A DNA stretch of 26,260 bases from a virus (lineage: Duplodnaviria > Caudoviricetes): positions 1 to 26,260 of IMG/VR virus record IMGVR_UViG_3300020045_005532, one strand, 5' to 3'. Below, piece after piece: positions 1 to 12,361 of the stretch. How positions within the stretch are numbered: the first letter of the stretch is position 1; the number at the start of each line of letters is the position of its first letter. Made by a program: the position numbers and the translations under genes. The notes under the pieces were generated by a model. It did no database searches. It had not been told where the DNA came from and worked only from the letters and a program-made list of their open reading frames with translations.

Positions 1-2
1 GC

Positions 3-278
3 GAGCATCCAGATAGTGCGAGTCCATTAATGCAATACACCGGATTAAAAGACAACCTAGGAAACCCTATTTTCGAAGGCGACATATTGCGCGTTTCAAA
101 TGATGATTATCATGAGACAGCGGATTATGAAGTGGTTTATTGCGCCGATGATGGCTATCCGGCATTTGATTTAAAAGGCTTTGTTAGTGACTCAAATAGT
201 TTCTCTGAGATTATCAATAGCGGGCTTTATCACTATGTCGTTGCTGGCAATATTTACCAGATGCCGGAGCCAATTTGA
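3..278 (+). CDS. YopX-family phage protein, 5'-truncated by window edge
   Basis: LMQYTGLKD..G..IFEGDIL and terminal V.GNIY motifs typical of YopX; frame is open upstream of the ATG at 30 to the window start. Confidence 0.85.
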   Translation, partial: EHPDSASPLMQYTGLKDNLGNPIFEGDILRVSNDDYHETADYEVVYCADDGYPAFDLKGFVSDSNSFSEIINSGLYHYVVAGNIYQMPEPI

Positions 279-688
279 AACCCCCCCCCGACCTAAAAAT
301 CTACGGCGACATAAATCACCGTGATGCTAAATGCCGTAAAGAATGGGTTGAGCAAAAAGAATGGTTTGGGCTGCTAAAGGAAAGGCGGCCACAATACTAT
401 GCGGTTGCAGTACATCCAAAGAACGAGGGTAAGCGCAACGGCAAGCAGTCGTCACAGGATAGCGAACAAGGCTCACTTAACACTGGCGCTAGTGACATAT
501 TGATTCCTGCTGGCTTATCGTTTGTGTGCGAAGTAAAGCGGGTTGACCATACGTTGTCCTCAATATCTGCCGACCAATTGACATATCTTCGTTCTGCGCG
601 TGACTTGGGCGCATTCACCTGTATAGCCCTAGGTTGCGCCGCTGCATGGGAGGCGCTTTTGGAGTGGGAGAAATTACTTTTAAAATAA
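275..688 (+). CDS. VRR-NUC domain nuclease
   Basis: EQ...HPKNEGKR...G..D....F..EVKR.......Q..YL....G.F...A.G...A pattern of phage VRR-NUC (PD-(D/E)XK) proteins; TTGA overlap with the previous stop. Confidence 0.85.
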   Translation: MKPPPDLKIYGDINHRDAKCRKEWVEQKEWFGLLKERRPQYYAVAVHPKNEGKRNGKQSSQDSEQGSLNTGASDILIPAGLSFVCEVKRVDHTLSSISADQLTYLRSARDLGAFTCIALGCAAAWEALLEWEKLLLK

Positions 689-712
689 AGTGAAATATTT
701 GCTGCAAAAGTG

Positions 713-741
713 TTGCGTTTAAAATGCTGCCGATATAGTAT
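713..741 (+). promoter_or_regulatory. Putative sigma70 promoter
   Basis: TTGCGT (713-718), 17 bp, TAGTAT (736-741) in an intergenic gap ahead of AAGGAG RBS and ORF 786. Confidence 0.6.
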
Positions 742-785
742 GGGCTCACTGAAACAACAAACGTAACCTACGAAGGAGAAACAAA

Positions 786-1091
786 ATGCAATTAGAATTG
801 ATTCCAGATATAAAAAGCGATGTTGAAATTGCTTTTTCTACACAAAGAACAAACCCAAAGCTTTTGGCTATTGCGCGCGAAAATGGTTTTTATAACGGAA
901 AAACAAAGTTTAATAAAATGTTTTCTGACTTATTTTTTAGTGGCGGAAAGATCAGTGCTAAAGCTGGCATTGATGATGCGGTAAAGACTAAGATCCTTAG
1001 ATATTTTAAGGCTCTTGCGTCATCTTATGAGCCTAAGCACGAAGAAAAAGAGGCTGTTTGTGCGCTTCTTTTATCTTGGCTTTGCGAGTAA
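786..1091 (+). CDS. Hypothetical phage protein
   Basis: Strong AAGGAG RBS; 101 aa; C-terminal PKHEEKEAVCA motif resembles a recurrent phage hypothetical family. Confidence 0.85.
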   Translation: MQLELIPDIKSDVEIAFSTQRTNPKLLAIARENGFYNGKTKFNKMFSDLFFSGGKISAKAGIDDAVKTKILRYFKALASSYEPKHEEKEAVCALLLSWLCE

Positions 1092-1097
1092 CTAGCC

Positions 1098-1424
1098 ATG
1101 AAAAAAACCTACATAGCAATCGGCCACTTGATCCAAGACCTACGCGCAGCACACGCAGCCGGAATCCGCGCCATGAAACTGGCAAACAAGCTGGACAAAA
1201 AATGGCGCTCGCGTGTGTTCTCGCAGATGAATCGCATTCGTGCAGAGCTTAAGCGTTACGAGTCACAAATTCACGATGGCTTTACGGTTATTACTTATTC
1301 TGGCTGTATTATTTCTAAGTATAAGCCTGTGCCGCAATATGGCCGCATGATTCGTGCAACTGCGCAGCAGGTTACAAAATGCTTCGTATTAGATTACGCT
1401 AACTACTCAAAATTGGAATCTTAA
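1098..1424 (+). CDS. Hypothetical basic protein
   Basis: 108 aa ORF tightly packed in the + strand operon. Confidence 0.7.
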   Translation: MKKTYIAIGHLIQDLRAAHAAGIRAMKLANKLDKKWRSRVFSQMNRIRAELKRYESQIHDGFTVITYSGCIISKYKPVPQYGRMIRATAQQVTKCFVLDYANYSKLES

Positions 1425-1426
1425 TC

Positions 1427-1792
1427 ATGCAACTAGCAAAAATTGAAAGCGCAAGACTGGAAATCCAAGAGCGCGGAATTTTAAACTTTTGGATTAATGT
1501 CAATTATGAAGATGGTATGAGTCAGAGTGTTGGCGGAATTGCTCTAGATACTTATGACAAGAAAACCGAGCGGCGTATAGGTACTGCTTACGGATGCGAA
1601 GTTATTCGCCGGCTACTTTTAGAGCTTGGGGTAAATGACTTTAGTGAAATGGCTGGTAAAATTATTTGGGTTATTGGTGAAGGAGATGGATTCAGCTTTA
1701 AGCCTACGGGAATAAAAGCGCTTCATGTTAATAACAAAAAATCTAATCCGGTTATTTTTTATGAAATACTTTCTCAATTTGGAGAGCCATAA
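1427..1792 (+). CDS. Hypothetical phage protein
   Basis: 121 aa; AKIES..L.I..RGIL...Q..GG..LD pattern resembles a common phage hypothetical family; stop overlaps next start. Confidence 0.8.
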   Translation: MQLAKIESARLEIQERGILNFWINVNYEDGMSQSVGGIALDTYDKKTERRIGTAYGCEVIRRLLLELGVNDFSEMAGKIIWVIGEGDGFSFKPTGIKALHVNNKKSNPVIFYEILSQFGEP

Positions 1793-2178
1793 TGCTACTA
1801 ACCCGCAACCAATTTCTAATCATCCTCGCCGTCCTGATTGTGTCGTGTGGCGCATGGGGGATTCTGCTTAAGATGTTTATTGATTCAAGTTTAGCGTTAA
1901 AGTGGTCGCTGATGGTTTGGTTTTTTGGTGGGTGTTTGGTTACGCTGGTTGCTGGTGGAGCTATAACGTATTTTGCCAACAAGAACTATGAGCGGAAATC
2001 AAAAAAATATAGCGGTCTACTTGGGCTACGGCATATAAATTGTAGATGTGTAACTGTTCCGCAAAAGCGCCTTAGCGACATAAAAATCGAAGGCGAAATA
2101 AACCCAGCACTAACCGCCATGAAACAAAAACTAACCGAAGTCAAACAAGCAGCAGAAAAGGGGATTGGCCGTGAATAA
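1792..2178 (+). CDS. Hypothetical membrane protein
   Basis: Two N-terminal hydrophobic segments, basic C-terminal half; TAATG coupling to previous gene. Confidence 0.7.
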   Translation: MLLTRNQFLIILAVLIVSCGAWGILLKMFIDSSLALKWSLMVWFFGGCLVTLVAGGAITYFANKNYERKSKKYSGLLGLRHINCRCVTVPQKRLSDIKIEGEINPALTAMKQKLTEVKQAAEKGIGRE

Positions 2179-2476
2179 AGAAATTACTCAAGCACTGATG
2201 GAAATGAACGAACGCAAAGCAAAGCGCAAAGAAGCCGAACTAACTACGTTAATAATGGCCTTCATCATTATTACAGCATTTTTTCTGGCGGTTATTGGTG
2301 TGAATATCGGCTACACGCTCGACTACGACACAATAGCAAACCTGTTTTTCAGCTCGATGCTAATACTGGCGGCGATTGTTATTATCGAGAACACCAGCAA
2401 GCTTGTACTGACTGCCAGCGTGTTTTCAGGCGTGTTTGTTGCTACCGGCCTATATTTAATTTGGAGCGCGTCATGA
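2171..2476 (+). CDS. Hypothetical membrane protein (3 predicted TM segments)
   Basis: Three hydrophobic stretches; probable GTG start at 2171 overlapping previous stop (track start 2165). Confidence 0.7.
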   Translation: MNKEITQALMEMNERKAKRKEAELTTLIMAFIIITAFFLAVIGVNIGYTLDYDTIANLFFSSMLILAAIVIIENTSKLVLTASVFSGVFVATGLYLIWSAS

Positions 2477-2958
2477 GTTTACGGGATGAGATGCCAGTCA
2501 ATACTGGCGTAACTTTTTGCGGTGTTAAGGCTGCTGAGAATGAAGAGCTATCCTATGCCGTTAAAACCTTTCTTGCGCAAGGTGGAAAAATTACCGTAGT
2601 TCCATCTGGACTAGGTAAAGATGTTATCGAATTCAATAAAACGATTGAAAGCAAAAAACAGGCTGAAATGCGCGAGGGATTCCAGAAGACGCCTAAGCCT
2701 AACGCGATCAATGCGACAATTAAAAAGCATATCAGCGAAGCCGAAAATGCAGCCAAGCGAAAAACGCGCTCCAATCCAGTAATGCGCCCAGAAAATCGCG
2801 CCAAAAGTGGTCGAATGAATATTCACCAGACGCCGAACGGTAAATGGGTTGTGACGGTTAAGTCTATGCACGTTGGCACCTTTGATGACGAATCAGCAGC
2901 AATCAAAGCGCGGGATGATGAGCGTAGCCGGTTGAAGTTGCCAGAGGCGGCATATTGA
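2473..2958 (+). CDS. Putative transcription regulator: SutA-like RNAP-binding motif plus C-terminal AP2-like DNA-binding domain
   Basis: ELSYAVKTFLAQGGKITVVP resembles the SutA FLxxGGK(V/I) motif; C-terminus KSG..NI......KW.V.V...HVGTFDD...A..ARD is AP2-like; ATGA overlap supports start 2473. Confidence 0.6.
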   Translation: MSLRDEMPVNTGVTFCGVKAAENEELSYAVKTFLAQGGKITVVPSGLGKDVIEFNKTIESKKQAEMREGFQKTPKPNAINATIKKHISEAENAAKRKTRSNPVMRPENRAKSGRMNIHQTPNGKWVVTVKSMHVGTFDDESAAIKARDDERSRLKLPEAAY

Positions 2959-3089
2959 AACGCTGCTGGTACGTTACTCTAAAATGCGGCACCAAATGTA
3001 CAATGATTATCGAAGAACCTTGCAGCGAGGACGAAGCATTACAGCATGCTCGCGATAGGTTTGATGGTAGGGTTTTGATGGTTAATTAA
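2955..3089 (+). CDS. Small hypothetical protein, 44 aa (not in ORF track)
   Basis: TTG start overlapping previous TGA, GAGG at 2944-2947; MKRCWYVTLKCGTKCTMIIEEPCSEDEALQHARDRFDGRVLMVN fills the gap exactly. Confidence 0.6.
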   Translation: MKRCWYVTLKCGTKCTMIIEEPCSEDEALQHARDRFDGRVLMVN

Positions 3090-3102
3090 TGGCAGGCAAA
3101 AC

Positions 3103-3456
3103 ATGATTAAAAATTTAGAACACGTTCAGTGCATTGATACTCAATATCGAGCGCCAGACTTTCCGAAATTGTGCGCTCATACAGAAAACCAATCATATGA
3201 GCCAACAATAGGCAATGGCTTTAAGCGTAGGCATAGGCTTACTTTAACGCTATTTGTCGAATTTGATGCAAACCAAGCCCAATATGATACTGCTCGCGAT
3301 TCAGCAAAAAAGCATTTAGCTAATAGTCTTTATGGTGAAATGCTAAGTAGGCTTGTCGGTATTCAGCATACCGTATCTGGAGGCGACACAAACATCGCAC
3401 TTTCAATGATCGATAAACTAAAGCGTGATTTAGTTGAATCGCTTCATGGGATTTAA
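3103..3456 (+). CDS. Hypothetical phage protein
   Basis: 117 aa ORF in operon context. Confidence 0.75.
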   Translation: MIKNLEHVQCIDTQYRAPDFPKLCAHTENQSYEPTIGNGFKRRHRLTLTLFVEFDANQAQYDTARDSAKKHLANSLYGEMLSRLVGIQHTVSGGDTNIALSMIDKLKRDLVESLHGI

Positions 3457-3479
3457 TCTTTAACTGATAGGAATTTATT

Positions 3480-4100
3480 ATGCAAAAACTACAACTAAAA
3501 CCAGGCGATTACGTTAGCACCAAATCAAAAAACACACTACCGATAGAGCGATTACTGAAAATATTGGATTACAACCATGTATCTGGAGTTTTTACATGGA
3601 AGGCAAGAGATAGATCTTACTTTAAGTTTATACATCATTTTGTCTCATGGAATAAAAGATTCTCAGGAAAAACAGCAGGAGTAAAAATATCCAAGAAAAA
3701 CAAGATTTATATAAAATTAAACATAGATGGTGTTAATTTATATGCTCACCGAATAGCGTGGGCAATATTCTATGGTGAGTGGCCAGAATTAGAATTAGAC
3801 CATATAAATGGTAACTCAGAGGATAATTCTATATCAAACCTAAGGCATGTCAGCAGATTAGAAAACTGTAGAAATGTATCAACACAAAAAAATAGTTTTA
3901 GTGGATATTGTGGGGTTAATTGGCATTCTATAGCAAAAAAATGGAGGGCTAGAGTTAAAATTTGCGGAGTTGAGTATTATATTGGACTTTTTGATGATCC
4001 AGAGATTGCCGCTAAAGCAATAAAAGAAAAAAGGGATTCTATGGGTTTTCATAATAATCATGGGTTGCAAATAATTCATAATGTTGGTGCATTAGTATGA
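3480..4100 (+). CDS. HNH homing-type endonuclease with C-terminal AP2-like domain
   Basis: AHRIAW...G.WP...LDHING...DN...NLR......N..N HNH motif, then SGY.GV.W....KKWRA.......YIGLFD AP2-like domain; visibly more AT-rich than flanks. Confidence 0.92.
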   Translation: MQKLQLKPGDYVSTKSKNTLPIERLLKILDYNHVSGVFTWKARDRSYFKFIHHFVSWNKRFSGKTAGVKISKKNKIYIKLNIDGVNLYAHRIAWAIFYGEWPELELDHINGNSEDNSISNLRHVSRLENCRNVSTQKNSFSGYCGVNWHSIAKKWRARVKICGVEYYIGLFDDPEIAAKAIKEKRDSMGFHNNHGLQIIHNVGALV

Positions 4101-4747
4101 ACGAACTACTCCTACGCCTAACCGCTAACATGCCGATGAAGCAGATTAATATTGATGAAATAAGAGTTTGGTCACATGTTCCGTTTGCTACAGGTAAAGA
4201 AGAGTTGCGCGATGGAGTTATAGACAGCAAACCTTATTTGCAAAGATATTACGCCGGAACATTCCGCGATGGCTCAGACCTATGGCTGCATAGATTTTTG
4301 TCTGCTGACGGTGACAGGCATTTGCATAGCCATCCGTTTGAGTTTTCTTCTGTGATGCTATGCGGTGGATACACAGAGGAGTTTATTGATCGTAATGGAT
4401 GCAAAGATCATCGCGTTACTTTGCCGAATCCTAAGAGCAAGCTGCAAATATACCTTGAGGAAATATTGGAAAGCTTAAAAAGCAAGAATCCAATGTTTTG
4501 GATGACATTTTTAAATCTTTCCTGTGGCGCGCAGAACCAACTTGACGCATACGACTGGCACCGCATAGCAAGCGTATTGCCTGAAACATGGACAGCCGTA
4601 ATAGTAAATCCAAAGCGCTTGCCTAAGTGGTTTTTTAAGGATGACAGCGGGCATCTAAAGGATAAGCTTTCTAGCCCTAGAGATTGGTGGAAGGATTATA
4701 AGGTGCGTCCTGAGTGTGGGATTGCGGGGGATGATAATCGTGTGTGA
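4097..4747 (+). CDS. Phage cupin-like metal-binding protein
   Basis: YLQRYY...LHRF...D.DRHLHSHP....S..L.GGY.E...WHRI His-rich cupin-like pattern. Confidence 0.65.
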   Translation: MNELLLRLTANMPMKQINIDEIRVWSHVPFATGKEELRDGVIDSKPYLQRYYAGTFRDGSDLWLHRFLSADGDRHLHSHPFEFSSVMLCGGYTEEFIDRNGCKDHRVTLPNPKSKLQIYLEEILESLKSKNPMFWMTFLNLSCGAQNQLDAYDWHRIASVLPETWTAVIVNPKRLPKWFFKDDSGHLKDKLSSPRDWWKDYKVRPECGIAGDDNRV

Positions 4748-5003
4748 AAAATCTAGAGATCACCACATTGAATACATTAAAAGCATAGGCATAAATCCAT
4801 GCAAGTGCGGCAATAATGATCTAATTGCGCACCCAGAAAGCCAATCAACTGATTTTGATGATGATGGATTTCCAGTTATAGACGACTACAATTTTATTCA
4901 GTGCAAAAGCTGTGGCGCTACAGTATGGGGTTGCGGCAAGGATGAGATTGAGCAGTGGAATAAGCAAGAATATGATGATTATGACTCTGGCGCATTAAAA
5001 TGA
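4716..5003 (+). CDS. Lar-like (restriction alleviation family) zinc-ribbon protein; true start may be slightly downstream
   Basis: PCKCG...IQCKSCGA......IEQWN resembles the Lar pattern of two Cys pairs and terminal WN. Confidence 0.55.
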   Translation: MGLRGMIIVCEKSRDHHIEYIKSIGINPCKCGNNDLIAHPESQSTDFDDDGFPVIDDYNFIQCKSCGATVWGCGKDEIEQWNKQEYDDYDSGALK

Positions 5004-5473
5004 AAAAATCCAAAAACAAAACCAGCCGTGCAAAAACAATAGCCCAAGTTCGCAAAAAATTCATAGGGTTGACAGTTAATTGGACTGACAAAGACCCGCT
5101 TATTGCCGAAGATGAATCACTAATCTACAGCGATGCAGTAACCCATAAAAACCCTATCCTTAACTTAACGATAGGTAGAATCTGGCGCGATCACGCACAT
5201 GATATTTTGGTAAGCGAATTCACGTGGTTATTGACTGTAGATATTGTTTTCGATGCTGTTAATCGTGGCGAGTTGAAAATAATACAGGGTGAATTTCATT
5301 GCTCTTGCGCACTACAAAAGCCTGGCGATACGCGAATGAATGATGCAATTCTTGAGTTTGTGCAATCTGAGCGCGCTAACAATGATAAAATAGCGCTAGA
5401 CTTAGGCGACAAACACAAAAGCTATGGCGTATATTTGCGGACTGATTTTAAAGCTGTAATTCTAGGTGTTTAG
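5000..5473 (+). CDS. Hypothetical protein
   Basis: 157 aa, ATGA overlap, basic N-terminus. Confidence 0.75.
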   Translation: MKKSKNKTSRAKTIAQVRKKFIGLTVNWTDKDPLIAEDESLIYSDAVTHKNPILNLTIGRIWRDHAHDILVSEFTWLLTVDIVFDAVNRGELKIIQGEFHCSCALQKPGDTRMNDAILEFVQSERANNDKIALDLGDKHKSYGVYLRTDFKAVILGV

Positions 5474-5475
5474 TG

Positions 5476-5503
5476 TTGCGTTTTTGCTGCATCGGTGTAT
5501 TAT
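5476..5503 (+). promoter_or_regulatory. Putative sigma70 promoter reading into the cassette array
   Basis: TTGCGT (5476-5481), 16 bp, TATTAT (5498-5503); shares GTGTTGCGTTT..TGCTGC with the promoter at 710-730. Confidence 0.5.
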
Positions 5504-5515
5504 TTGTTTAAGTGA

Positions 5516-5599
5516 ATGTAACGCCCATGTTCAGCCGCTCCTTTTTACAAACTAGCTGCGCGATATTCTAGCCGCGTCGGCTGTAATGACTGGTTACAT
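5516..5599 (-). repeat. attC-like site 1 (84 bp)
   Basis: Minus strand: R'' ATGTAAC, spacer CAGTC, L'' ATTACAGC (extra A), CGAC...GCG, L' GCTGAAC, spacer ATGGGC, R' GTTACAT. Confidence 0.88.
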
Positions 5600-5630
5600 T
5601 TACATAGCAATTTTATTTAGGAGGTGACTT

Positions 5631-5822
5631 ATGGGTTTTGATTTGAATTTTTTAAATGCGATAGCTGAGATCAAGAAAAAACACGGTAAACCGAAAGAGG
5701 ACGTTCGCAGCGTAATTGAATGCCCAACGCGCAAAGGTAATTTGCGGTATTTAGTTTCAAGCTACAACGGCCACACGCACGGCACCTGCGAAACACCCGG
5801 CTGCTTAAAGTGGATGGAATAG
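5631..5822 (+). CDS. Cassette A ORF, 63 aa putative Zn-binding phage-type protein
   Basis: AGGAGGT RBS; IECP....L.Y..S.YNGH.HG.C.T.GCL.WME motif; stop lies 3 bp before the next attC. Confidence 0.85.
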   Translation: MGFDLNFLNAIAEIKKKHGKPKEDVRSVIECPTRKGNLRYLVSSYNGHTHGTCETPGCLKWME

Positions 5823-5825
5823 TGA

Positions 5826-5909
5826 ATGTAACGTTGAGCTAAAGCGCTGCATTTAAGCAGCGATAAAAACGCAAATTTATAGACAGTCGCTTTGAGTGAC
5901 TGGTTACAT
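5826..5909 (-). repeat. attC-like site 2 (84 bp)
   Basis: Minus strand: ATGTAAC CAGTC ACTCAAAG (extra C) CGACTG...CAGCG CTTTAGC TCAAC GTTACAT. Confidence 0.88.
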
Positions 5910-5929
5910 TTACCGATGGAGGGTTCGCA

Positions 5930-6094
5930 ATGAAAACAAAGTACAGAGCCATGATAGAGCAGAATGGTGGCCAATATTACGGATGGATTACATTCCACGC
6001 CGAAAAATGGGAACGCAAAAACGAATGCACTCTGCTAGTAGATGGTTATGAAATGGAGTTTGACGAACCAATTGATGACCCTGAAGAGTGGTGA
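5930..6094 (+). CDS. Cassette B ORF, 54 aa acidic protein (not in ORF track)
   Basis: GGAGG at 5918-5922; MKTKYRAMIEQNGGQYYGWITFHAEKWERKNECTLLVDGYEMEFDEPIDDPEEW; TGA directly abuts attC 3. Confidence 0.8.
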   Translation: MKTKYRAMIEQNGGQYYGWITFHAEKWERKNECTLLVDGYEMEFDEPIDDPEEW

Positions 6095-6180
6095 ATGTAA
6101 CGTTGAGCACAACGGCGGCTTTTAACTGGTAATTTAAAACTGATATTTACAACCCGTCCCGTTGCTGTGACTGGTTAAAT
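6095..6180 (-). repeat. attC-like site 3 (86 bp)
   Basis: Minus strand: ATTTAAC CAGTC ACAGCAAC (extra G) GGGACGG...CCGCC GTTGTGC TCAAC GTTACAT. Confidence 0.88.
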
Positions 6181-6194
6181 TTAGGAGACACACT

Positions 6195-6482
6195 TTGAAC
6201 AACCAAATTCAAACATGGGCACAAGGGCGATTTGTAGAGCAGCCACACGAAAGCAATTTTACTGATGCGCAAAAGGCGCAAGCTAACGAGCTAGAGAGGT
6301 TTTTGGTTAGACCCGATCCTCTTGATACGGCCATTTGTAGGGCGTACAGCCCGCAAGATGCTGAGTGGATAGCCTCGCGATTAAATTTAGCCTCAAAACT
6401 GGAGCAGCTTACCTACGACTTCGCAATGGGTAAAACTGACGGTGAAGAAATTCGCAGCTTTGTAAGGGCTAGCCTCGACTGA
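6195..6482 (+). CDS. Cassette C ORF, 95 aa hypothetical protein
   Basis: AGGAG RBS then TTG start; TGA directly abuts attC 4. Confidence 0.8.
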   Translation: MNNQIQTWAQGRFVEQPHESNFTDAQKAQANELERFLVRPDPLDTAICRAYSPQDAEWIASRLNLASKLEQLTYDFAMGKTDGEEIRSFVRASLD

Positions 6483-6569
6483 ATTTAACGCCCATGTTCA
6501 CGCGTGCCGTTTAACAAGTAATAAAGAACTAAGGCCTACCCGCATCGCGCGTGTAACGCCTTGTTATGA
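6483..6569 (-). repeat. attC-like site 4 (87 bp)
   Basis: Minus strand: TCATAAC AAGGC GTTACACG (extra A)...CGTGAAC ATGGGC GTTAAAT. Confidence 0.88.
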
Positions 6570-6596
6570 CCAACACAACGTTAGTGAGATAGCGAA

Positions 6597-6749
6597 ATGC
6601 ACAACCAAGATGACAAAAATCACACAATACCAGACGATTACGAAACTTACGACAAGCGATATTTTCAAGGTCGTGAATGTCGGATATACCGCAAGGGTGA
6701 TTACTGGTTTAGCCAGCTTTCTAAACGCTGGATAAAGCTTAGCTACTGA
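6597..6749 (+). CDS. Cassette D ORF, 50 aa protein (not in ORF track)
   Basis: MHNQDDKNHTIPDDYETYDKRYFQGRECRIYRKGDYWFSQLSKRWIKLSY; tandem TGA TAG stops abut attC 5; only a weak GAG RBS. Confidence 0.7.
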   Translation: MHNQDDKNHTIPDDYETYDKRYFQGRECRIYRKGDYWFSQLSKRWIKLSY

Positions 6750-6752
6750 TAG

Positions 6753-6837
6753 TCATAACGTTGAGCACAACGGCGGCTTTTAACGGCCGGAAGAGTGCGA
6801 CACTCTAATTCCGTCCAGTTGCTGTGACTGGTTACAT
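6753..6837 (-). repeat. attC-like site 5 (85 bp)
   Basis: Minus strand: ATGTAAC CAGTC ACAGCAAC (extra G) TGGACGG...CCGCC GTTGTGC TCAAC GTTATGA; outer arms match attC 3. Confidence 0.88.
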
Positions 6838-6860
6838 TTACATAGCGAGGTTAATTAAAA

Positions 6861-7013
6861 ATGACTGCGGAACAATATAAAAGAGATTTTGAAATTTGGT
6901 ATTTTGCGCAATTCGGAAATGGCATTGGGCTTAACTTTGATGATGATGGCTACGAGAACGAAACTGTAAACGCGATGTGGATTGGTTTTTGTGCCGGAAG
7001 AATGACAGCCTAG
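6861..7013 (+). CDS. Cassette E ORF, 50 aa phage-type protein (not in ORF track)
   Basis: GAGGT RBS; MTAEQYKRDFEIWYFAQFGNGIGLNFDDDGYENETVNAMWIGFCAGRMTA has the FE.W...Y....V..MW.G pattern common in small phage proteins; TAG TGA stops at cassette end. Confidence 0.8.
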   Translation: MTAEQYKRDFEIWYFAQFGNGIGLNFDDDGYENETVNAMWIGFCAGRMTA

Positions 7014-7016
7014 TGA

Positions 7017-7035
7017 ATGTAACAGTTTATTCAAC
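7017..7035 (-). other. attI-like simple recombination site
   Basis: Minus strand GTTGAAT-AAACT-GTTACAT (L box, 5 bp, R box) closes the last cassette; no partner arm for an attC hairpin seen in 7036-7200. Confidence 0.6.
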
Positions 7036-7181
7036 TGGTCAGGCCGTAAAACTACGACATTTAGGCGACATGCATCATTGATTTTATTGAAGTTTTTCGC
7101 TGTGTTTGTAGCTTTACTGGGTAGGCCGCTTTTCCACAGAAATTGCACTATATTTGTGCTTTGCACCATATTAACTCAAAC

Positions 7182-7370
7182 TTAGCCAGTCATCGAGCTG
7201 GCTTTTTTTCGTCTGCTATTTCTCATCTTGCACCTAGCCAAACAAAACCTATGCCATTTTGTCTTCGGATGAAAGAATTCTTGGCATGTTTTCTCTGCGC
7301 ATTTGATGACTCCGCCGCCACAATGTGCACACTTATTATCTTTCGTAACGTGCATGAGTAACATCTGCAT
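7182..7370 (-). CDS. Small Cys-rich zinc-finger protein
   Basis: CAHC...C....C...F.P....HRFC..RC..R..R, resembling CGNR-type/phage zinc fingers; GAGAGG upstream of ATG. Confidence 0.65.
   Translation of the reverse strand: MQMLLMHVTKDNKCAHCGGGVIKCAEKTCQEFFHPKTKWHRFCLARCKMRNSRRKKASSMTG
7184..7209 (+). terminator. Rho-independent terminator after the cassette array
   Basis: AGCCAG-TCATCGAG-CTGGCT stem-loop followed by a T run. Confidence 0.65.
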
Positions 7371-7462
7371 TGCCTCTCTAAAAAACCAAACTGTTAATGG
7401 TTATTATCGTTTTGCGAAGAACGTTTTATCCCATTAACAGCTCAGTTCGAGGTAATTATATC

Positions 7463-8191
7463 ATGGCTATGGAAATTAACGATATTGTAGGTGGTCGCGG
7501 TGGTTTTGGGCTTGGTGGCGGCGATAGCGGCTTGGGTCTAATCGCCATTCTTGCAGCAACCGGCGCGCTTGGAAATAACAATCGCCGCAATGACTGTGAT
7601 CGCGATTGTGTTACGCAGGCAGATTTAAATGGCAAGGCTATTGGCGATCTTAAGGGCGAGATTAAAGACGCTCAGGCCGAGCTGCAATTAGGTGCTGCGC
7701 GAGCAGAGGCAAGCATAAATGCAACAACTACTGCAACTGGCAACTCACTGCAAAATGGCCAAACAGCAATACTTTTGCAGTCAGCAAATCAAACCGAGCG
7801 CCTTATGGCTGGAATTGCTGCGGTTGACACCAATGTGGATCGTCAGGCTTGCATGCTTCAGTCAGCGATAAAGGACTCTGAGCGCAACATTCTGGAAGTA
7901 CTCAACCAAAACCGCATCCGCGATCTTGAGCAACAACTAACGGTTTCTCAGTTGCGTGAAGGTGAAGGGCGTCAAATCATTCGCGATAATGATAACGCGC
8001 ACAAACAGGAAATCACCGTAACTCAGATCCAAAACAACAACCAGCTGCAAATTCAAGAGATTCGCCATAGCTTGGCACTTTTGGGTAGCGGCGTGGCTCA
8101 GGTTGCGCGTGCCACTAACAGCCAAGTAGTTGTAGGCTCAACAGGGGTTGCAGGGGTGCAGTCGGCAAACCCAAACAACGTAAACGTGTAG
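7463..8191 (+). CDS. Gly-rich, hydrophobic-N-terminus coiled-coil protein of unknown function
   Basis: GAGGT RBS supports ATG 7463 over track start 7397; GGFGLGGG-hydrophobic-NNN head then long Q/N/A-rich helical region. Confidence 0.85.
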   Translation: MAMEINDIVGGRGGFGLGGGDSGLGLIAILAATGALGNNNRRNDCDRDCVTQADLNGKAIGDLKGEIKDAQAELQLGAARAEASINATTTATGNSLQNGQTAILLQSANQTERLMAGIAAVDTNVDRQACMLQSAIKDSERNILEVLNQNRIRDLEQQLTVSQLREGEGRQIIRDNDNAHKQEITVTQIQNNNQLQIQEIRHSLALLGSGVAQVARATNSQVVVGSTGVAGVQSANPNNVNV

Positions 8192-8201
8192 GGAGTAGAT
8201 C

Positions 8202-8402
8202 ATGCCAGAGCATCATGGGCGGGTTTATTTTACTACGTGGTTTGATAAGTCAGGCGTTTTTCACGTGTCGCCAAAAGATGGCGTTGAGCTTATGGCTATC
8301 AAACATTTGCTTTACGAAATTGGCGAGCACACTATGGAAAAAATGGTTGTGTTTGATACGGATGTTCCTATAGCGCTTGGGAGTGATCCTAAGACTTATT
8401 AG
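8202..8402 (+). CDS. Hypothetical protein, 66 aa
   Basis: GGGAG RBS; followed by terminator. Confidence 0.7.
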   Translation: MPEHHGRVYFTTWFDKSGVFHVSPKDGVELMAIKHLLYEIGEHTMEKMVVFDTDVPIALGSDPKTY

Positions 8403-8409
8403 GGGTCAT

Positions 8410-8439
8410 AAAAAACCCGCCGTAATTGGCGGGTTTTTT
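8410..8439. terminator. Bidirectional rho-independent terminator
   Basis: AAAAAACCCGCC-GTAATT-GGCGGGTTTTTT between convergent genes. Confidence 0.92.
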
Positions 8440-8460
8440 GTATTTACCACATAGTATTTT

Positions 8461-8730
8461 TTAAGCTAATCGTGATGTATCTAATGACCGTCGCAATGAC
8501 ACAAAGCCATGGCAAGCCGTTGATTCACCAGAGCCAGAGCCGATAGCTTTAGCAATAAATACGGTTTTCATTGAGCGACCGATTGCGCAAATCTGCTCGA
8601 CCTTCGCCATTACAGCGGGCTCGAACTTTGAAACCATTCGCGCAAACGCATCGACACAAACAGCACTTAATGCGGACATAGCAATTGATAATACGGAAAT
8701 AAATCGCCGATATAAATGTGATCCAGCCAT
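8461..8730 (-). CDS. Hypothetical protein with hydrophobic N-terminus
   Basis: GAGGT RBS; 89 aa; ends just before bidirectional terminator. Confidence 0.7.
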   Translation of the reverse strand: MAGSHLYRRFISVLSIAMSALSAVCVDAFARMVSKFEPAVMAKVEQICAIGRSMKTVFIAKAIGSGSGESTACHGFVSLRRSLDTSRLA

Positions 8731-8786
8731 AATAAATACCTCGTTAAATGTTAAAGATTCATGAATCCTTTTTTCAAAGGAAATTT

Positions 8787-8815
8787 AATTTACAGCTTAT
8801 GGATATTTTTTGCAA
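8787..8815 (-). promoter_or_regulatory. Possible sigma70 promoter for the 8461-8730 gene
   Basis: Minus strand TTGCAA, 17 bp, TAAATT in an AT-rich gap. Confidence 0.35.
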
Positions 8816-8828
8816 TAGCGTCATAATT

Positions 8829-10730
8829 TTAAAGTCCTGTCACAGTCAACCCGCCAACAGTCGGCCCCGAAACCGTCAACCCTCTTACAGTCAGTCCGCC
8901 CCCAGAAGCCGGTGGAGCAACACTAAACTGAACAGCCCCACGACTAGTGCCATCGTGCGCAGACGTTGCCAGAAGCGAGTTTGTAGGCGTTACGCAATAC
9001 TTTGCAAAGTCGATAATATCCGCAGTAGTAAAGGCAGGTGTTATTCCAGATTCTTGCTTTCCGGTTGCCGAATTAAAGCCGTTTAATTTTAGCAGCTCTG
9101 CAAAAACCTGAGACGTGGTTGTTAACCCCTTGGTTGCAGCAAACGCTAGAATAATTGAGTTCCCAACAGGGTAGTCGGTCATTGTTGGATTTAGGTCGTC
9201 ATCGCTTCCACCAAATCCAGCATCACCGATTGTTTTTCCGGTTGTTACAACAAATCTATAAAGGTTTGTAGGAAATACAGTGACCAAATTCCAGTAGGTG
9301 TTGTAATCCATCACGTCAATTTGATCGGTTGGAACGATGCCGCCAAGCCCTGCAACAGTTGACAAATTGATGCCAGCAACCTGACCGTCAGATGATAGAT
9401 TGTTTATTACGCCAACAATATTAGATAATATCGTTACAACGCTAGAGCCTGTCATATACCCGTTTGATTCAGTTCTAAAAATCAGGCCGTAGGGGTTGGC
9501 GAAATTAGCGCTAGCCTTCTTGGATAGGTACGTATTGTGCTCAATAGTAACGTTTGCCGTTGAGCTTGCGCCAAGCCTGTTTGCAAAAACGCCTCCTTTG
9601 TCATCTAAAACAATATTCCGCTTAACGCTTATATCGCCAGAAGCGGGCAAAAAATACCAGTCGCTTGCGTTTTCTGCGCCGGATGGGTGAATAATGCCCT
9701 CGATGAAGTTATCTTCTATCGTTTTTACAGACCCATTATCAAAAAGATGGAAGTTGCCCTTTGCTGAATTGTGGCTAACATCCATAATAAATACAGAGCT
9801 TGCAACTGTGTCAGCAAAGAAAAAACAACCTTCTGTCTTTTCACTTTGTCGAAATGCAAGATTGCTTGTTGTGTGTGTTATCGCTAAATTTTTAACTCGA
9901 TCCACTGCAACAGAGTCAATCACGGTGTTTGGGTAACTAGATAGATAGTCAGGCTTAAAGAATCGTATTAATTTTGATGATGTTGGGTCGTTGTGTGTTG
10001 CGGTAAAATTGTCGTATTCGCGCAGTCCTACTGGTGTACCAGCGCCAGATTCGCAGCCAACATAAATCAAAAACGAGCCAGAAACGTCAGCAACATGGGA
10101 ATGACGGTAATCGTTATTTTTCCAAACGAAATCATTATTCAGTCCCGCGAAAGCGGTACTACCGAATAATCCAGCATCATTAAAAGATATATTTTCATAC
10201 CTCATATGATTTCCAGTTGCACTACCTCCGCCCATTTTTATACTGGCCATGTTTTTAATAACAACATGCTTTAAATCTATTAATCCAGTTGAGTAGCCAT
10301 TGCTCGCGCTAGAACAAATTAAAGGTAAAGGCTCACCACTAACATAGTCAGAGCGGGTAAATACATATTGATTTCCTAACGTACCGTGCGCTGTGAATTT
10401 GTTTGGCACATTAGTTGAAGATGTGGCGGTTTGTATCCAGCGATAATTTGATAATCCATCGAAAACTGCTCCAGGATATCCTATGACTTCATTCCACTGA
10501 TTTACCGTTGCATCTGCTGTTAGCTGTAATACTCCGCGATGATGAAATCCTGCGCGATTGCTAAATGACCCGCCTGTGAGTGTGATTGTAGGGTTGAATG
10601 TTACATTAGCAGGTATTGTCATCATATGACTAACAACTACCGTATCGCCCGCAACCGGAATACCATTAGGCGTCCATTTGGTTGGGTCGTTTACGTCCCC
10701 CGCAGCAAAGCTTGCATAAGCCACGCCCAT
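8829..10730 (-). CDS. Large beta-rich protein, probable parallel beta-helix (pectin-lyase-like) with G8-like N-terminus
   Basis: N-terminal GD.NDP..W....P.AGDTV.V motif; repeated I..N-type strands (IEDNFI, VKRNIV, IEHNTY, ILSNIV, MDYNTY); ends RGAVQF plus GLTV repeats. Confidence 0.6.
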   Translation of the reverse strand: MGVAYASFAAGDVNDPTKWTPNGIPVAGDTVVVSHMMTIPANVTFNPTITLTGGSFSNRAGFHHRGVLQLTADATVNQWNEVIGYPGAVFDGLSNYRWIQTATSSTNVPNKFTAHGTLGNQYVFTRSDYVSGEPLPLICSSASNGYSTGLIDLKHVVIKNMASIKMGGGSATGNHMRYENISFNDAGLFGSTAFAGLNNDFVWKNNDYRHSHVADVSGSFLIYVGCESGAGTPVGLREYDNFTATHNDPTSSKLIRFFKPDYLSSYPNTVIDSVAVDRVKNLAITHTTSNLAFRQSEKTEGCFFFADTVASSVFIMDVSHNSAKGNFHLFDNGSVKTIEDNFIEGIIHPSGAENASDWYFLPASGDISVKRNIVLDDKGGVFANRLGASSTANVTIEHNTYLSKKASANFANPYGLIFRTESNGYMTGSSVVTILSNIVGVINNLSSDGQVAGINLSTVAGLGGIVPTDQIDVMDYNTYWNLVTVFPTNLYRFVVTTGKTIGDAGFGGSDDDLNPTMTDYPVGNSIILAFAATKGLTTTSQVFAELLKLNGFNSATGKQESGITPAFTTADIIDFAKYCVTPTNSLLATSAHDGTSRGAVQFSVAPPASGGGLTVRGLTVSGPTVGGLTVTGL

Positions 10731-10731
10731 A

Positions 10732-11286
10732 TTAAAATACCGCCTTAATATTTATCGTAGCGTAATTACTCATAACGCCCGTTGAATCTTGAGCCGCGAT
10801 TAACGCTGTTCCGCTAGGCTTGTTTAGTGCTAATTTTGTTTTATCGCCAAGCACTGAAAAAGATTTATCTTCAAAAATAATATGGTAGGCGATAACTTTA
10901 TCTAAGCTGCTGCCATCCTCTCGCTTTGTTGGACGTTCCCACTCAATGTATCCAGAGGTCGCAACCCGCGAGCTAGATGAACTAGACGCCGCGCCACTTG
11001 ACGCTTTAGAGCTGCTTGAAGATGTAGCGCTTTTTCGCCATTCCGTGTTGTACGTCAAAATTGGCTGAGTAACAGTAACCACGCAACCGCACTTCAAAGA
11101 TAACGCACTGGCAGCAGACTCAGCCCGCGCTTGGAGGTCGTAAGTCGGCGAAACCGCAACACCACCGGCACTCACAATGTAGCTGCCACCGGTTTTAGTC
11201 TGTACGGGATATTTATCAGCACCGCCGTAATCAGCAGCAAAAACAACGGATGCAAATAGCATGAGAGGTAAAATAAATATTTTCAT
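10732..11286 (-). CDS. Exported protein with poly-Ser linker and C-terminal FN3-like domain
   Basis: Signal peptide MKIFILPLMLFASVVFA; SATSSSSSKASSGAASSSSSS linker; IEWERPTKREDGSSL....YHI......A.DS.G..S FN3-like motif. Confidence 0.7.
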   Translation of the reverse strand: MKIFILPLMLFASVVFAADYGGADKYPVQTKTGGSYIVSAGGVAVSPTYDLQARAESAASALSLKCGCVVTVTQPILTYNTEWRKSATSSSSSKASSGAASSSSSSRVATSGYIEWERPTKREDGSSLDKVIAYHIIFEDKSFSVLGDKTKLALNKPSGTALIAAQDSTGVMSNYATINIKAVF

Positions 11287-11804
11287 TTGCGGTCATCCTG
11301 CAAAGGTAGTTTTGATGGATCACAATAATCTTTTGCGGATCTTGCGATCAGTTCGCGTTGTAATGCCGCGTAATTAACCTCTACCAAGCCTATTACTTCG
11401 GTGAGACGTAAATAATTTTGTTCAAGGGTTCGCGTATATTCGGCATTGGCTCCAGCAGCTTCTGATCCGCTGCCGGCGGTATTGGGCAGCTTTGAATTGT
11501 TTTCTGTTGGACTGTTCCGCATCCGCAAAACACACTTGCCAGCATCAAAACAATCACGCAATTTTTTAAGCTCATCATCTTTTACCTTTAAGTCATCAGC
11601 GGTTCTTTGTTCGCGGTTCGCAGCATCATCAGCAAGCGATCGCTCCTTTTTGATTAGCTTATCTTTTGCTTCGATTTCGCCAGCCTGTGCGATTTTGTCT
11701 TGTTTTAGCTGCTGGTTTTGCTCGGCCACGTAGTCATAGCGCATAAAGAAAGCTATTGCGGCAACGAATAAGGCCGCGTAAATGTACAGCTTTAGGTTAA
11801 TCAT
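11283..11804 (-). CDS. Rz: Rz-like inner-membrane spanin
   Basis: N-terminal TM, coiled-coil, LR....AG..VLR motif, directly after endolysin. Confidence 0.85.
   Translation of the reverse strand: MINLKLYIYAALFVAAIAFFMRYDYVAEQNQQLKQDKIAQAGEIEAKDKLIKKERSLADDAANREQRTADDLKVKDDELKKLRDCFDAGKCVLRMRNSPTENNSKLPNTAGSGSEAAGANAEYTRTLEQNYLRLTEVIGLVEVNYAALQRELIARSAKDYCDPSKLPLQDDRK
11393..11578 (-). CDS. Rz1: Rz1-like outer-membrane spanin lipoprotein embedded in Rz
   Basis: Alternate frame inside Rz; signal peptide ending VFCG-C lipobox; Pro-rich CPIPPAA...LLEP. Confidence 0.8.
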   Translation of the reverse strand: MMSLKNCVIVLMLASVFCGCGTVQQKTIQSCPIPPAADQKLLEPMPNIREPLNKIIYVSPK

Positions 11805-12361
11805 GCCAACGCCTCATAAGCTGCTTTGAGCTGTTCGTTGTACGGTACAATGCCAAGCCTATGAGCCTGTGCTGCATACCCTGAGCCATTGTAAATGTAC
11901 GCGACCATGTGCCAATCCTTTTGGCTTACTGCTCTTGCAAGTCGCCCATCGCTCTCGATAAATTTAACGAATGCATTTATTTGTGCTGGCAGACCCGTTT
12001 TGAAGTCGTCCCACATTGCACCTACAGAACTATAACCAAGCGTAGCCCAGTGGAAGCCCATGATTTGAGGTAATCCAATTGACGTGGAATTCATTGCACC
12101 ATTCGAGTCAATCGCAAACGCATTATTAAACGCAATCCACTCTTTCGACTGTACTTCTATTTTATTAACAGACCACGCACCGCTTGGGGCGTATGGAGCC
12201 ATTCGCTTAAACCATTTAGGTTCGAATTGGATAAGCAGTTTTCCGTTATCCGCAAAGCCCTTCCCGCCGGTCTCGACTTCGATAATCGCCTTTAGCGCTT
12301 TTTTATCAATGCCTGTATGGAGCGAGTCAATTATGGATATAATTTCTTTACTTAAGCTCAT
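11801..12361 (-). CDS. Endolysin, N-acetylmuramidase (DUF3380) family
   Basis: VETGG.GF...I.FE..WF, STSIGLPQIMGF, KDW...A..YNG..Y, Y...L..AY motifs. Confidence 0.92.
   Translation of the reverse strand: MSLSKEIISIIDSLHTGIDKKALKAIIEVETGGKGFADNGKLLIQFEPKWFKRMAPYAPSGAWSVNKIEVQSKEWIAFNNAFAIDSNGAMNSTSIGLPQIMGFHWATLGYSSVGAMWDDFKTGLPAQINAFVKFIESDGRLARAVSQKDWHMVAYIYNGSGYAAQAHRLGIVPYNEQLKAAYEALA

What the first reader, a model, noticed from the sequence alone, without database searches (positions are those of the whole stretch)
5476..7209. Inverted geometry: all cassette ORFs are antisense to attC and driven from the distal end
Seen: attC sites are canonical on the - strand but all five ORFs are on +, with RBS and start just beyond R'' and stop codons abutting the next R'. 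A sigma70-like promoter (5476-5503) lies just left of the array and a terminator (7184-7209) to its right. Established: in ordinary integrons nearly all ORFs point toward their own attC and are read from Pc next to attI, so the newest cassette is the best expressed. Inference: here the oldest cassette is promoter-proximal and new ones are appended at the end of the transcript. The same cassettes moved into a host integron would be antisense to Pc and silent, so host arrays could store phage genes harmlessly, while normal host cassettes captured by the phage would not be expressed.
Basis: partly seen in the sequence, partly recalled or inferred. Interest (0 to 1): 0.85.

Follow-up and report, generated by a model that had tools for sequence, protein, structure and literature searches.

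The report
Phage integron with backwards genes
This phage fragment carries a bacterial-type integron docking site and five small gene cassettes, all written backwards, with no integrase in the fragment, so it likely borrows its host's integrase to swap accessory genes while captured host cassettes would stay silent.

Summary
Real. In a siphovirus fragment, five attC hairpins (5516-6837) have top-strand anatomy on the minus strand, an attI-like half-site closes the array at 7017-7056, and all five ORFs read on plus. The polarity holds by extrahelical-base position and by a covariance model trained only on intI-anchored bacterial attCs. A near-identical attI (28-30 of 37 nt) sits beside true integron integrases with sense cassettes; the only genus-named relative of that integrase is from Cellvibrio. 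Across 32 viral contigs, 118 of 121 cassettes are antisense. None of the 15 array-bearing records searched holds an IntI. Relatives' cargo includes Acb2, Lar, methyltransferases and RNA-repair enzymes, and one phage holds a sense, host-type cassette at attI. Likely mechanism: host IntI acts in trans, new cassettes join the end of the phage transcript, and host cassettes land silent. The 5476 promoter is weak and seen in only one relative, and storage of phage genes in host arrays was not found. Phage attC clusters are published (Qi 2023). The inversion is present in PH101, whose sites that paper tested, but goes unremarked in the text searched. This scan noted the layout before on other DNA (39 notes).

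The parts
5476..5503 (+). Weak sigma70-like promoter block (TTGCGT-16-TATTAT)
   Evidence: Sequence; 8 of 12 match, below the scan threshold; at the same place in relative L024
5516..5599 (-). attC 5 (distal, inferred oldest), top strand on minus
   Evidence: missed by the covariance model at E<=1
5631..5822 (+). Cassette ORF, 63 aa, phrog_31210 (unknown function)
   Evidence: 86% identical cassette at another rank in L024
5826..5909 (-). attC 4
   Evidence: E 0.0014
5930..6094 (+). Cassette ORF, 54 aa, no family
6095..6180 (-). attC 3
   Evidence: E 0.23
6195..6482 (+). Cassette ORF, 95 aa; 53% identical to an ordinary gene of Aurantimonas phage AmM-1 with no attC around it
6483..6569 (-). 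attC 2
   Evidence: E 0.0059
6597..6749 (+). Cassette ORF, 50 aa, no family
6753..6837 (-). attC 1 (attI-proximal)
   Evidence: E 0.17
6861..7013 (+). Cassette ORF, 50 aa, no family; inferred newest cassette
7017..7056 (-). attI-like simple site: R box 7023-7017, 5-nt spacer, L box 7035-7029; predicted crossover between 7023 and 7022
   Evidence: Conserved across relatives; 28-30 of 37 nt identical to the attI beside intI in L180/L200/L203
7057..7140 (-). Rest of the conserved attI region, with a second copy of the CGGC..GCCG-type motif near 7108-7135
7184..7210 (+). Intrinsic-terminator-like hairpin and U-tract

Best explanation
This phage fragment holds a host-type attI and five attC-bounded cassettes whose genes lie antisense to the att sites, with no integrase in the fragment, and the array is likely rearranged by the host's integron integrase acting in trans. 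Shown: att anatomy and polarity, ORF direction, the attI match to complete bacterial integrons, different cassette content at the same locus in a close relative, and one cassette at different ranks in two phages. Inferred: during infection the host IntI (a Cellvibrio-like integron is the best lead) excises cassettes through plus-strand attC hairpins and inserts circles at 7023/7022. The genes are read on plus from the phage early operon or the weak 5476 promoter to the terminator at 7184, so each new cassette is appended last. Also inferred, at about even odds: the inversion is selected as a strand firewall, because bacterial arrays can be rich in anti-phage cassettes, which would land silent here, while phage-built antisense cassettes (Acb2, Lar, methyltransferases in relatives) are expressed.
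For: Polarity follows the rule that extrahelical bases lie on the arm opposite AAC on the bottom strand (PMC5027507, passages); window sites fit with plus as bottom. The covariance model hits only minus. The same scanner agrees with the tested strands of TJE1 and with intI-anchored arrays, where most calls are sense (L106: 21 of 26; L110: 18 of 24). A near-identical attI lies beside proteins over the TIGR02249 cut-off in L200 and L203, with 3 of 3 sense cassettes in L200. 118 of 121 core-matched cassettes in 32 viral contigs are antisense, and an SD-like motif follows R'' on the bottom strand in 82 of 118 against 3 of 118 on top. No PF00589 match in 13 of 15 array-bearing records, including four at 94-100% completeness; the 2 matches are not IntI. 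L177 carries a sense 200-aa cassette at rank 1 with a 114-nt attC 70-72% identical to L200's, and L167/L175 share one cassette with its 5'-side attC (97%) at ranks 1 and 5. PH101 has four attCs on plus and 3 of 3 annotated ORFs between them on minus; its bottom strands recombined with IntI1 better than its top strands (PMC9892861 section 3.4).
Against: The window is a 26-kb fragment, so a recombinase in the missing part is not excluded. The ORF-attC link is loose: of 13 homologous cassette pairs only 5 keep the same attC type on the 5' side, none on the 3' side, and 8 differ on both, one of them with a 99.6% identical body. Whole-cassette IntI movement alone does not explain that. The attI likeness is partly by construction, since the bacterial loci were found with a phage-derived pattern. 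A looser set gave 162 antisense, 10 sense and 1 tie of 173. TJE1 is a phage array in sense orientation, so inversion is not universal. A promoter-like site on minus at 7174-7147 points into the array, at chance level. Most cargo has no known function: 32 of 117 have a PHROG, 12 of 112 a Pfam hit, and none of the window's own five has a named function.
Confidence: 0.75

Rival explanations
1. The array arose from integron parts but is now reshuffled mainly by phage homologous recombination between repeated att arms and shared cassette ends, with little IntI involvement.
For: attC interiors are swapped under conserved bodies in 8 of 13 pairs. 24 of 118 cassettes in 16 contigs share the same end sequences around mostly unrelated ORFs. 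Complete relative G003 encodes an exonuclease, SSB, NinB- and NinG-like proteins.
Against: Each attC stays internally paired with its bulge, which homologous recombination does not need. attI is conserved at host quality. A host-type cassette with no phage homology sits exactly at the attI crossover in L177. Core and inverse core match in 121 of 142 units.
Confidence: 0.12
2. The phage encodes its own recombinase in the part of the genome missing from this fragment.
For: The window is incomplete; 2 of 15 array-bearing records hold a tyrosine recombinase.
Against: Four records at 94-100% completeness have no PF00589 match, and the two found are far below the IntI cut-off. 37 further ORFs of G003 gave no integrase family.
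Confidence: 0.06
3. The minus strand is the recombinogenic one, so each ORF is followed by its own attC as usual and nothing is inverted.
For: Top-strand recombination occurs at low frequency for some attCs (PMC5027507). attC swaps at the R'' side could be R'' crossovers. The first extrahelical base is often not the classical G (C 50, G 36, A 21, T 11 of 118).
Against: The half-site without a hairpin is at the right end and matches attI of complete integrons. attC likeness follows the ORF's 5' side in 10 of 13 pairs (mean 0.63 against 0.51; background 0.54). PH101's ORF-strand attCs recombined better.
Confidence: 0.04
4. It is a piece of a host chromosomal array captured whole and inert.
For: attI and some attCs are host-like; capture of array segments by temperate phages is published (PMC9892861).
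Against: Host-type arrays are mostly sense with longer genes. Cargo is phage-like. Close relative L024 has the same flanks and a different cassette set.
Confidence: 0.03

Closest known systems
CALINs in virulent phages (Qi et al. 2023, PMC9892861: TJE1, PH101, P12002L, ctTUS972)
   Same: attC clusters without intI in tailed phages, small ORFs and orphan methyltransferases; PH101 and ctTUS972 show the same inversion when re-read here.
   Different: The paper's main text has no 'antisense', 'opposite' or 'reverse' and calls PH101 typical in layout; its figures were not seen. It names no attI for these CALINs in the parts read. Here a conserved host-type attI, a family of at least 32 contigs and a host-type cassette at attI are seen.
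Sedentary chromosomal integrons of Gammaproteobacteria (Cellvibrio-like IntI in L200/L203; Pseudomonadales MAG arrays L093/L104)
   Same: attI sequence, attC anatomy, matching core and inverse core, single-ORF cassettes.
   Different: They carry intI beside attI and mostly sense genes of 100-400 aa; the phage lacks intI, has antisense genes in cassettes of median 253 nt and attCs of mostly 80-89 nt.
Reverse-oriented single cassettes in bacterial arrays, such as toxin-antitoxin cassettes with their own promoter (recalled; own-promoter TA cassettes in PMC9892861)
   Same: A gene antisense to attC polarity inside an ordinary cassette.
   Different: There it is an exception with its own promoter; here it is the rule and the cassettes look promoterless.
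Inverted-integrase integrons of Treponema (PMC4889954, passages)
   Same: A departure from standard integron geometry.
   Different: There intI is flipped relative to attC; here there is no intI and the cargo genes are flipped.
PeSL-bounded early-gene modules of T4-type phages (recalled, not checked)
   Same: Small phage accessory genes shuffled between repeated boundary elements.
   Different: Those boundaries are promoter stem-loops; these are attC/attI sites of host integron type.

Membership tests
Complete integron | intI gene beside attI | tested here: not met
   No integrase family among 43 window ORFs; the ORF beyond attI is an unrelated phage protein
Complete integron | attI simple site at the head of the array | tested here: met
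   7017-7056, 28-30 of 37 nt identical to intI-adjacent attI
Complete integron | Pc promoter at attI driving sense cassette genes | tested here: not met
   All five ORFs point toward attI; one chance-level minus-strand promoter match at 7174-7147
Integron gene cassette / attC | R''-L''...L'-R' imperfect palindrome with extrahelical bases on the arm opposite AAC on the bottom strand | tested here: met
   rule from PMC5027507
Integron gene cassette / attC | Each cassette's core site complementary to its own inverse core | tested here: met
   5 of 5 in the window; 121 of 142 units in the family
Integron gene cassette / attC | Cassette moves as TTRRRY-body-attC-G unit | tested here: inconclusive
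   Clear for L167/L175 and 5 of 13 pairs; 8 of 13 pairs changed attC on both sides
Integron gene cassette / attC | Recombination by IntI on the folded bottom strand | not testable with these tools
   Shown in print for PH101 and TJE1 sites of similar build (PMC9892861), not for these
CALIN (phage-borne) | Two or more same-strand attC sites with no intI nearby | tested here: met
   Five sites and no intI in 26 kb
CALIN (phage-borne) | Located in a phage genome | tested here: met
   Major head, tail, tape measure, endolysin and spanin genes; G000 is a virus record

The most novel reading that the evidence does not exclude
These phages run a counter-defence integron on the host's own integrase and keep the two cassette pools apart by strand. 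They are also cassette factories: ordinary phage genes are fitted, start codon to stop codon, into a few reusable cassette end-frames and then paired with attC hairpins, which would expose how new integron cassettes are made.
Probability: 0.35. Interest if true: 0.9.

Novelty: new variant of a known kind. Interest (0 to 1): 0.78.

Why it matters
Integrons are seen as bacterial stores of anti-phage cassettes (bioRxiv 10.1101/2024.07.02.601686, passages). If phages keep a host-type attI and use the host integrase to shuffle counter-defence genes, one enzyme serves both sides of the arms race, and gene direction decides which side can read a cassette. The arrays would be a ready list of candidate anti-defence genes: 85 of 117 proteins have no PHROG, beside a clear Acb2 homolog. 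The shared end-frames around unrelated ORFs, and cassette genes with non-cassette phage homologs, give a handle on the open question of cassette genesis (open by my own knowledge of the field).

Tried and rejected
Rfam on 3000-9000 gave nothing over gathering score. Free MFE folding of the five sites as DNA did not separate the strands, and bottom-minus-top energy over 118 sites was small (-0.8 kcal/mol, 67 of 118), so neither is used. Blastn of the array, one attC and attI against GenBank phages gave no real relative. Three relatives found by major capsid protein showed no array in the DNA held, which did not reach the matching region. The host was not pinned. The attI motif was in 0 of 401 sampled Gammaproteobacteria. 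Genomes with 50-67% IntI relatives had related but different attI regions, and 5 of them gave no DNA match to window 1-12000. No RNA holder was listed. Four DNA runs laid as contigs covered att sites and cassette ends more than ORFs, with joints between shared ends whose middle is unknown; this is not used as evidence of excision. The Atlas gave only low-score leads for the 95-aa protein. One row with wrong coordinates was dropped before the covariance model was built. Of the 74 loci, most were chance matches; 17 loci (16 contigs after one proved a single site at that stage) were carried on as arrays. Literature: searches showed no paper on antisense phage cassette arrays; the library lacks most subscription journals, and figures and the Dryad annotation file of Qi 2023 were not seen.

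Full report
Setting. The window is the whole record G000, a siphovirus fragment. Small early-type genes run on plus from 1 to 8402, and head, tail, tape-measure and lysis genes run on minus from 25860 down. None of 43 ORFs matched an integrase family in PHROGs or Pfam.

The observation. Five hairpin sites lie at 5516-5599, 5826-5909, 6095-6180, 6483-6569 and 6753-6837. Read on minus, each has R'', a 5-nt spacer, an 8-nt L'' with an unpaired fourth base, a variable middle, a 7-nt L', a 5-6-nt spacer and R'. L-box pairing is 6.5-7 of 7 in that reading and 3.5-5 in the mirror reading, and 0 of 300 shuffles produced more than one site. Nivina et al. (PMC5027507; passages and one discussion section read) place extrahelical bases on the arm opposite the AAC triplet on the recombinogenic bottom strand, which makes plus the bottom strand here. 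A covariance model built from 12 attC top strands of intI-bearing bacterial arrays hit 4 of 5 window sites and 6 sites in relative L024, all on minus. Each cassette's first bases complement its own last bases. The five ORFs are on plus, start 14-31 nt past R'' and stop 0-3 nt before R': the mirror image of a normal cassette. The terminator-like hairpin is sound as a motif. The promoter block is present but sub-threshold and recurs at the same place only in L024 among close loci.

The right end is an attI. After the last ORF comes a half-site with no hairpin partner (7017-7056). A related element of about 130 nt heads most arrays in relatives. A metagenome scan with a pattern from this consensus returned 29 matches in 28 loci. 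In L200 and L203 the motif lies just upstream of a divergent gene scoring 375 and 378 bits on TIGR02249 (cut-off 265), and L180 holds the start of such a gene; L200 continues with three sense cassettes. The window's site matches these at 28-30 of 37 nt, the last 16 identical. The likeness is partly built into the search, but the position beside intI is not. The only genus-named relative of this IntI in the list is from Cellvibrio sp. BR, at 71%. That is a lead to the host, not an assignment.

A family. Pattern scans of IMG/VR gave arrays in 32 contigs including the window; three are near copies of each other. Of 142 attC-to-attC units, 121 have matching cores, and of these 118 have the longest ORF antisense (median 87% of the body), 2 sense and 1 tied; the other 21 split 18 to 3. 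A looser, larger set gave 162, 10 and 1 of 173. SD-like motifs follow R'' on the bottom strand in 82 of 118 and on top in 3. Anchoring on attI instead gave 91 antisense, 9 sense and 1 tie; 6 of the 9 sense units are in bacterial-type loci. As control, two Pseudomonadales MAG integrons with almost the same attC type gave mostly sense calls (21 of 26 in L106, 18 of 24 in L110, 11 of 17 in L103). Their antisense calls were mainly repeated cassettes with no conserved frame, a ParE-like ORF (label recalled) and one 57-aa ORF. PF00589 was absent from 13 of 15 array-bearing records, including four at 94-100% completeness, and the 2 hits are not IntI.

Movement. L024 shares the window's left-flank genes (62-92% identity), promoter block and terminator but carries a different cassette set, with the 63-aa cassette at another rank and a decayed distal attC. 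L167 and L175 carry one cassette at ranks 1 and 5, with the attC at the ORF's 5' side 97% identical. L177, a phage locus (spanin beside attI), has at rank 1 a sense 200-aa ORF with a 114-nt attC 70-72% identical to two of L200's: a host-type cassette in the newest slot, facing away from the phage genes. Against a simple picture, among 13 homologous pairs the 5'-side attC is the more alike in 10, the 3'-side in 2, with 1 tie, yet only 5 keep the same attC type and 8 changed it on both sides. attC interiors therefore also get swapped at or near R'', by R'' crossovers or short-homology recombination (inference).

Cargo. 32 of 117 cassette proteins match a PHROG and 12 of 112 a Pfam family. These include four DNA methyltransferases, an Acb2/Tad1 hairpin protein (E 3.5e-18; PDB 8H2J p26 at 3e-21; that p26 is Acb2 is recalled), Lar, a Pnk-type phosphatase, an RNA ligase, a 5'-nucleotidase and an HTH protein. 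The window's own five have no named function. One has a 53% homolog in phage AmM-1 with no attC around it. 24 of 118 cassettes in 16 contigs share the same end-frame, often with a similar leader up to the ATG, around mostly unrelated ORFs, and two smaller frames recur. Part of this is extended R''/R' complementarity, but the conserved mismatch and leader suggest common descent with ORF replacement (inference).

Mechanism. Most likely the host IntI excises and inserts cassettes on the phage chromosome, and the genes are read from the distal side. In 27 of 32 arrays a same-strand ORF ends at the last R', so read-through from a phage operon is the general case and the window's promoter a local one. 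New cassettes are appended downstream. Why the inversion is so consistent is not shown. I favour a strand firewall against the host's anti-phage cassettes (about 0.5). An alternative is that co-orienting genes with replication puts the bottom strand on the lagging template, which affects excision (PMC5371416, abstract only).

Against what is known. Qi et al. 2023 (PMC9892861; methods and results passages, section 3.4 and supplement part 1 read) reported 17 phage CALINs and showed bottom-strand recombination for TJE1 and PH101 sites. Re-read here, TJE1 is sense. PH101 has four attCs on plus with 3 of 3 intervening annotated genes on minus, and ctTUS972 has attCs on minus among plus genes. The inversion thus exists in public genomes and has indirect experimental backing, but the words for it are absent from that paper's text and my searches found no paper on it (passages of PMC8618304, PMC11551772, PMC9668308, PMC4889954, PMC13676570, PMC10462680 and three preprints). 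It is a phage CALIN by definition, not a complete integron, and it differs from published ones by a host-type attI and systematic inversion. This scan holds 39 earlier AI notes of the same layout on other genomes. They are unchecked, were read after my reading was formed, and are not counted as support.

Verdict. Observation confirmed; interpretation partly supported; new variant of a known kind; interest 0.78.

Noticed in passing
L182:3417-3443; L194:2456-2482 and 3089-3115: The same attI motif occurs, twice in tandem in L194, behind prophage-like regulator genes and is followed by sense, host-like ORFs with no attC detected: possibly attI-bounded units in a small prophage.
   Followed up: partly
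L093:7690-14165; L104/L106 arrays: Pseudomonadales MAG integrons hold many copies of two families of 272-nt and 316-nt cassettes with no conserved reading frame and fixed end sequences; possibly empty cassette frames or RNAs.
   Followed up: no
window 7463-8191: 242-aa Gly-rich, coiled-coil-like phage protein just past the terminator, with no PHROG or Pfam family; Atlas look-alikes are unnamed viral clusters.
   Followed up: partly
window 8408-8441: Very strong bidirectional terminator-like hairpin (z -6.5) where plus and minus gene blocks converge.
   Followed up: no
window 1427-1792 and L019:5006-5407: An ordinary early gene of the window is 65% identical to an ORF that starts right at an attC R'' inside G004's array, where several ORFs without attC interrupt the array.
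   Followed up: partly
L084/L085 and L019 (G004): G004 shares several early genes with the window at 51-87% but has its array at another position about 8 kb away, so the platform has moved or been gained more than once.
   Followed up: partly
L088:29240-30008 (Polaribacter phage P12002L): A methyltransferase gene lies between two attC sites of opposite polarity.
   Followed up: no
L198:1350-4027: A 767-kb bacterial contig has this attI and a sense array but no intI in the 4 kb upstream.
   Followed up: no
L010:11575-11931; L087: G001 has a second small array of opposite polarity about 4 kb from the first.
   Followed up: no
L165, L189 (118-119-nt attC cassettes): Some antisense ORFs start inside R'' itself, the ATG overlapping the GTTATG of the box.
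   Followed up: no
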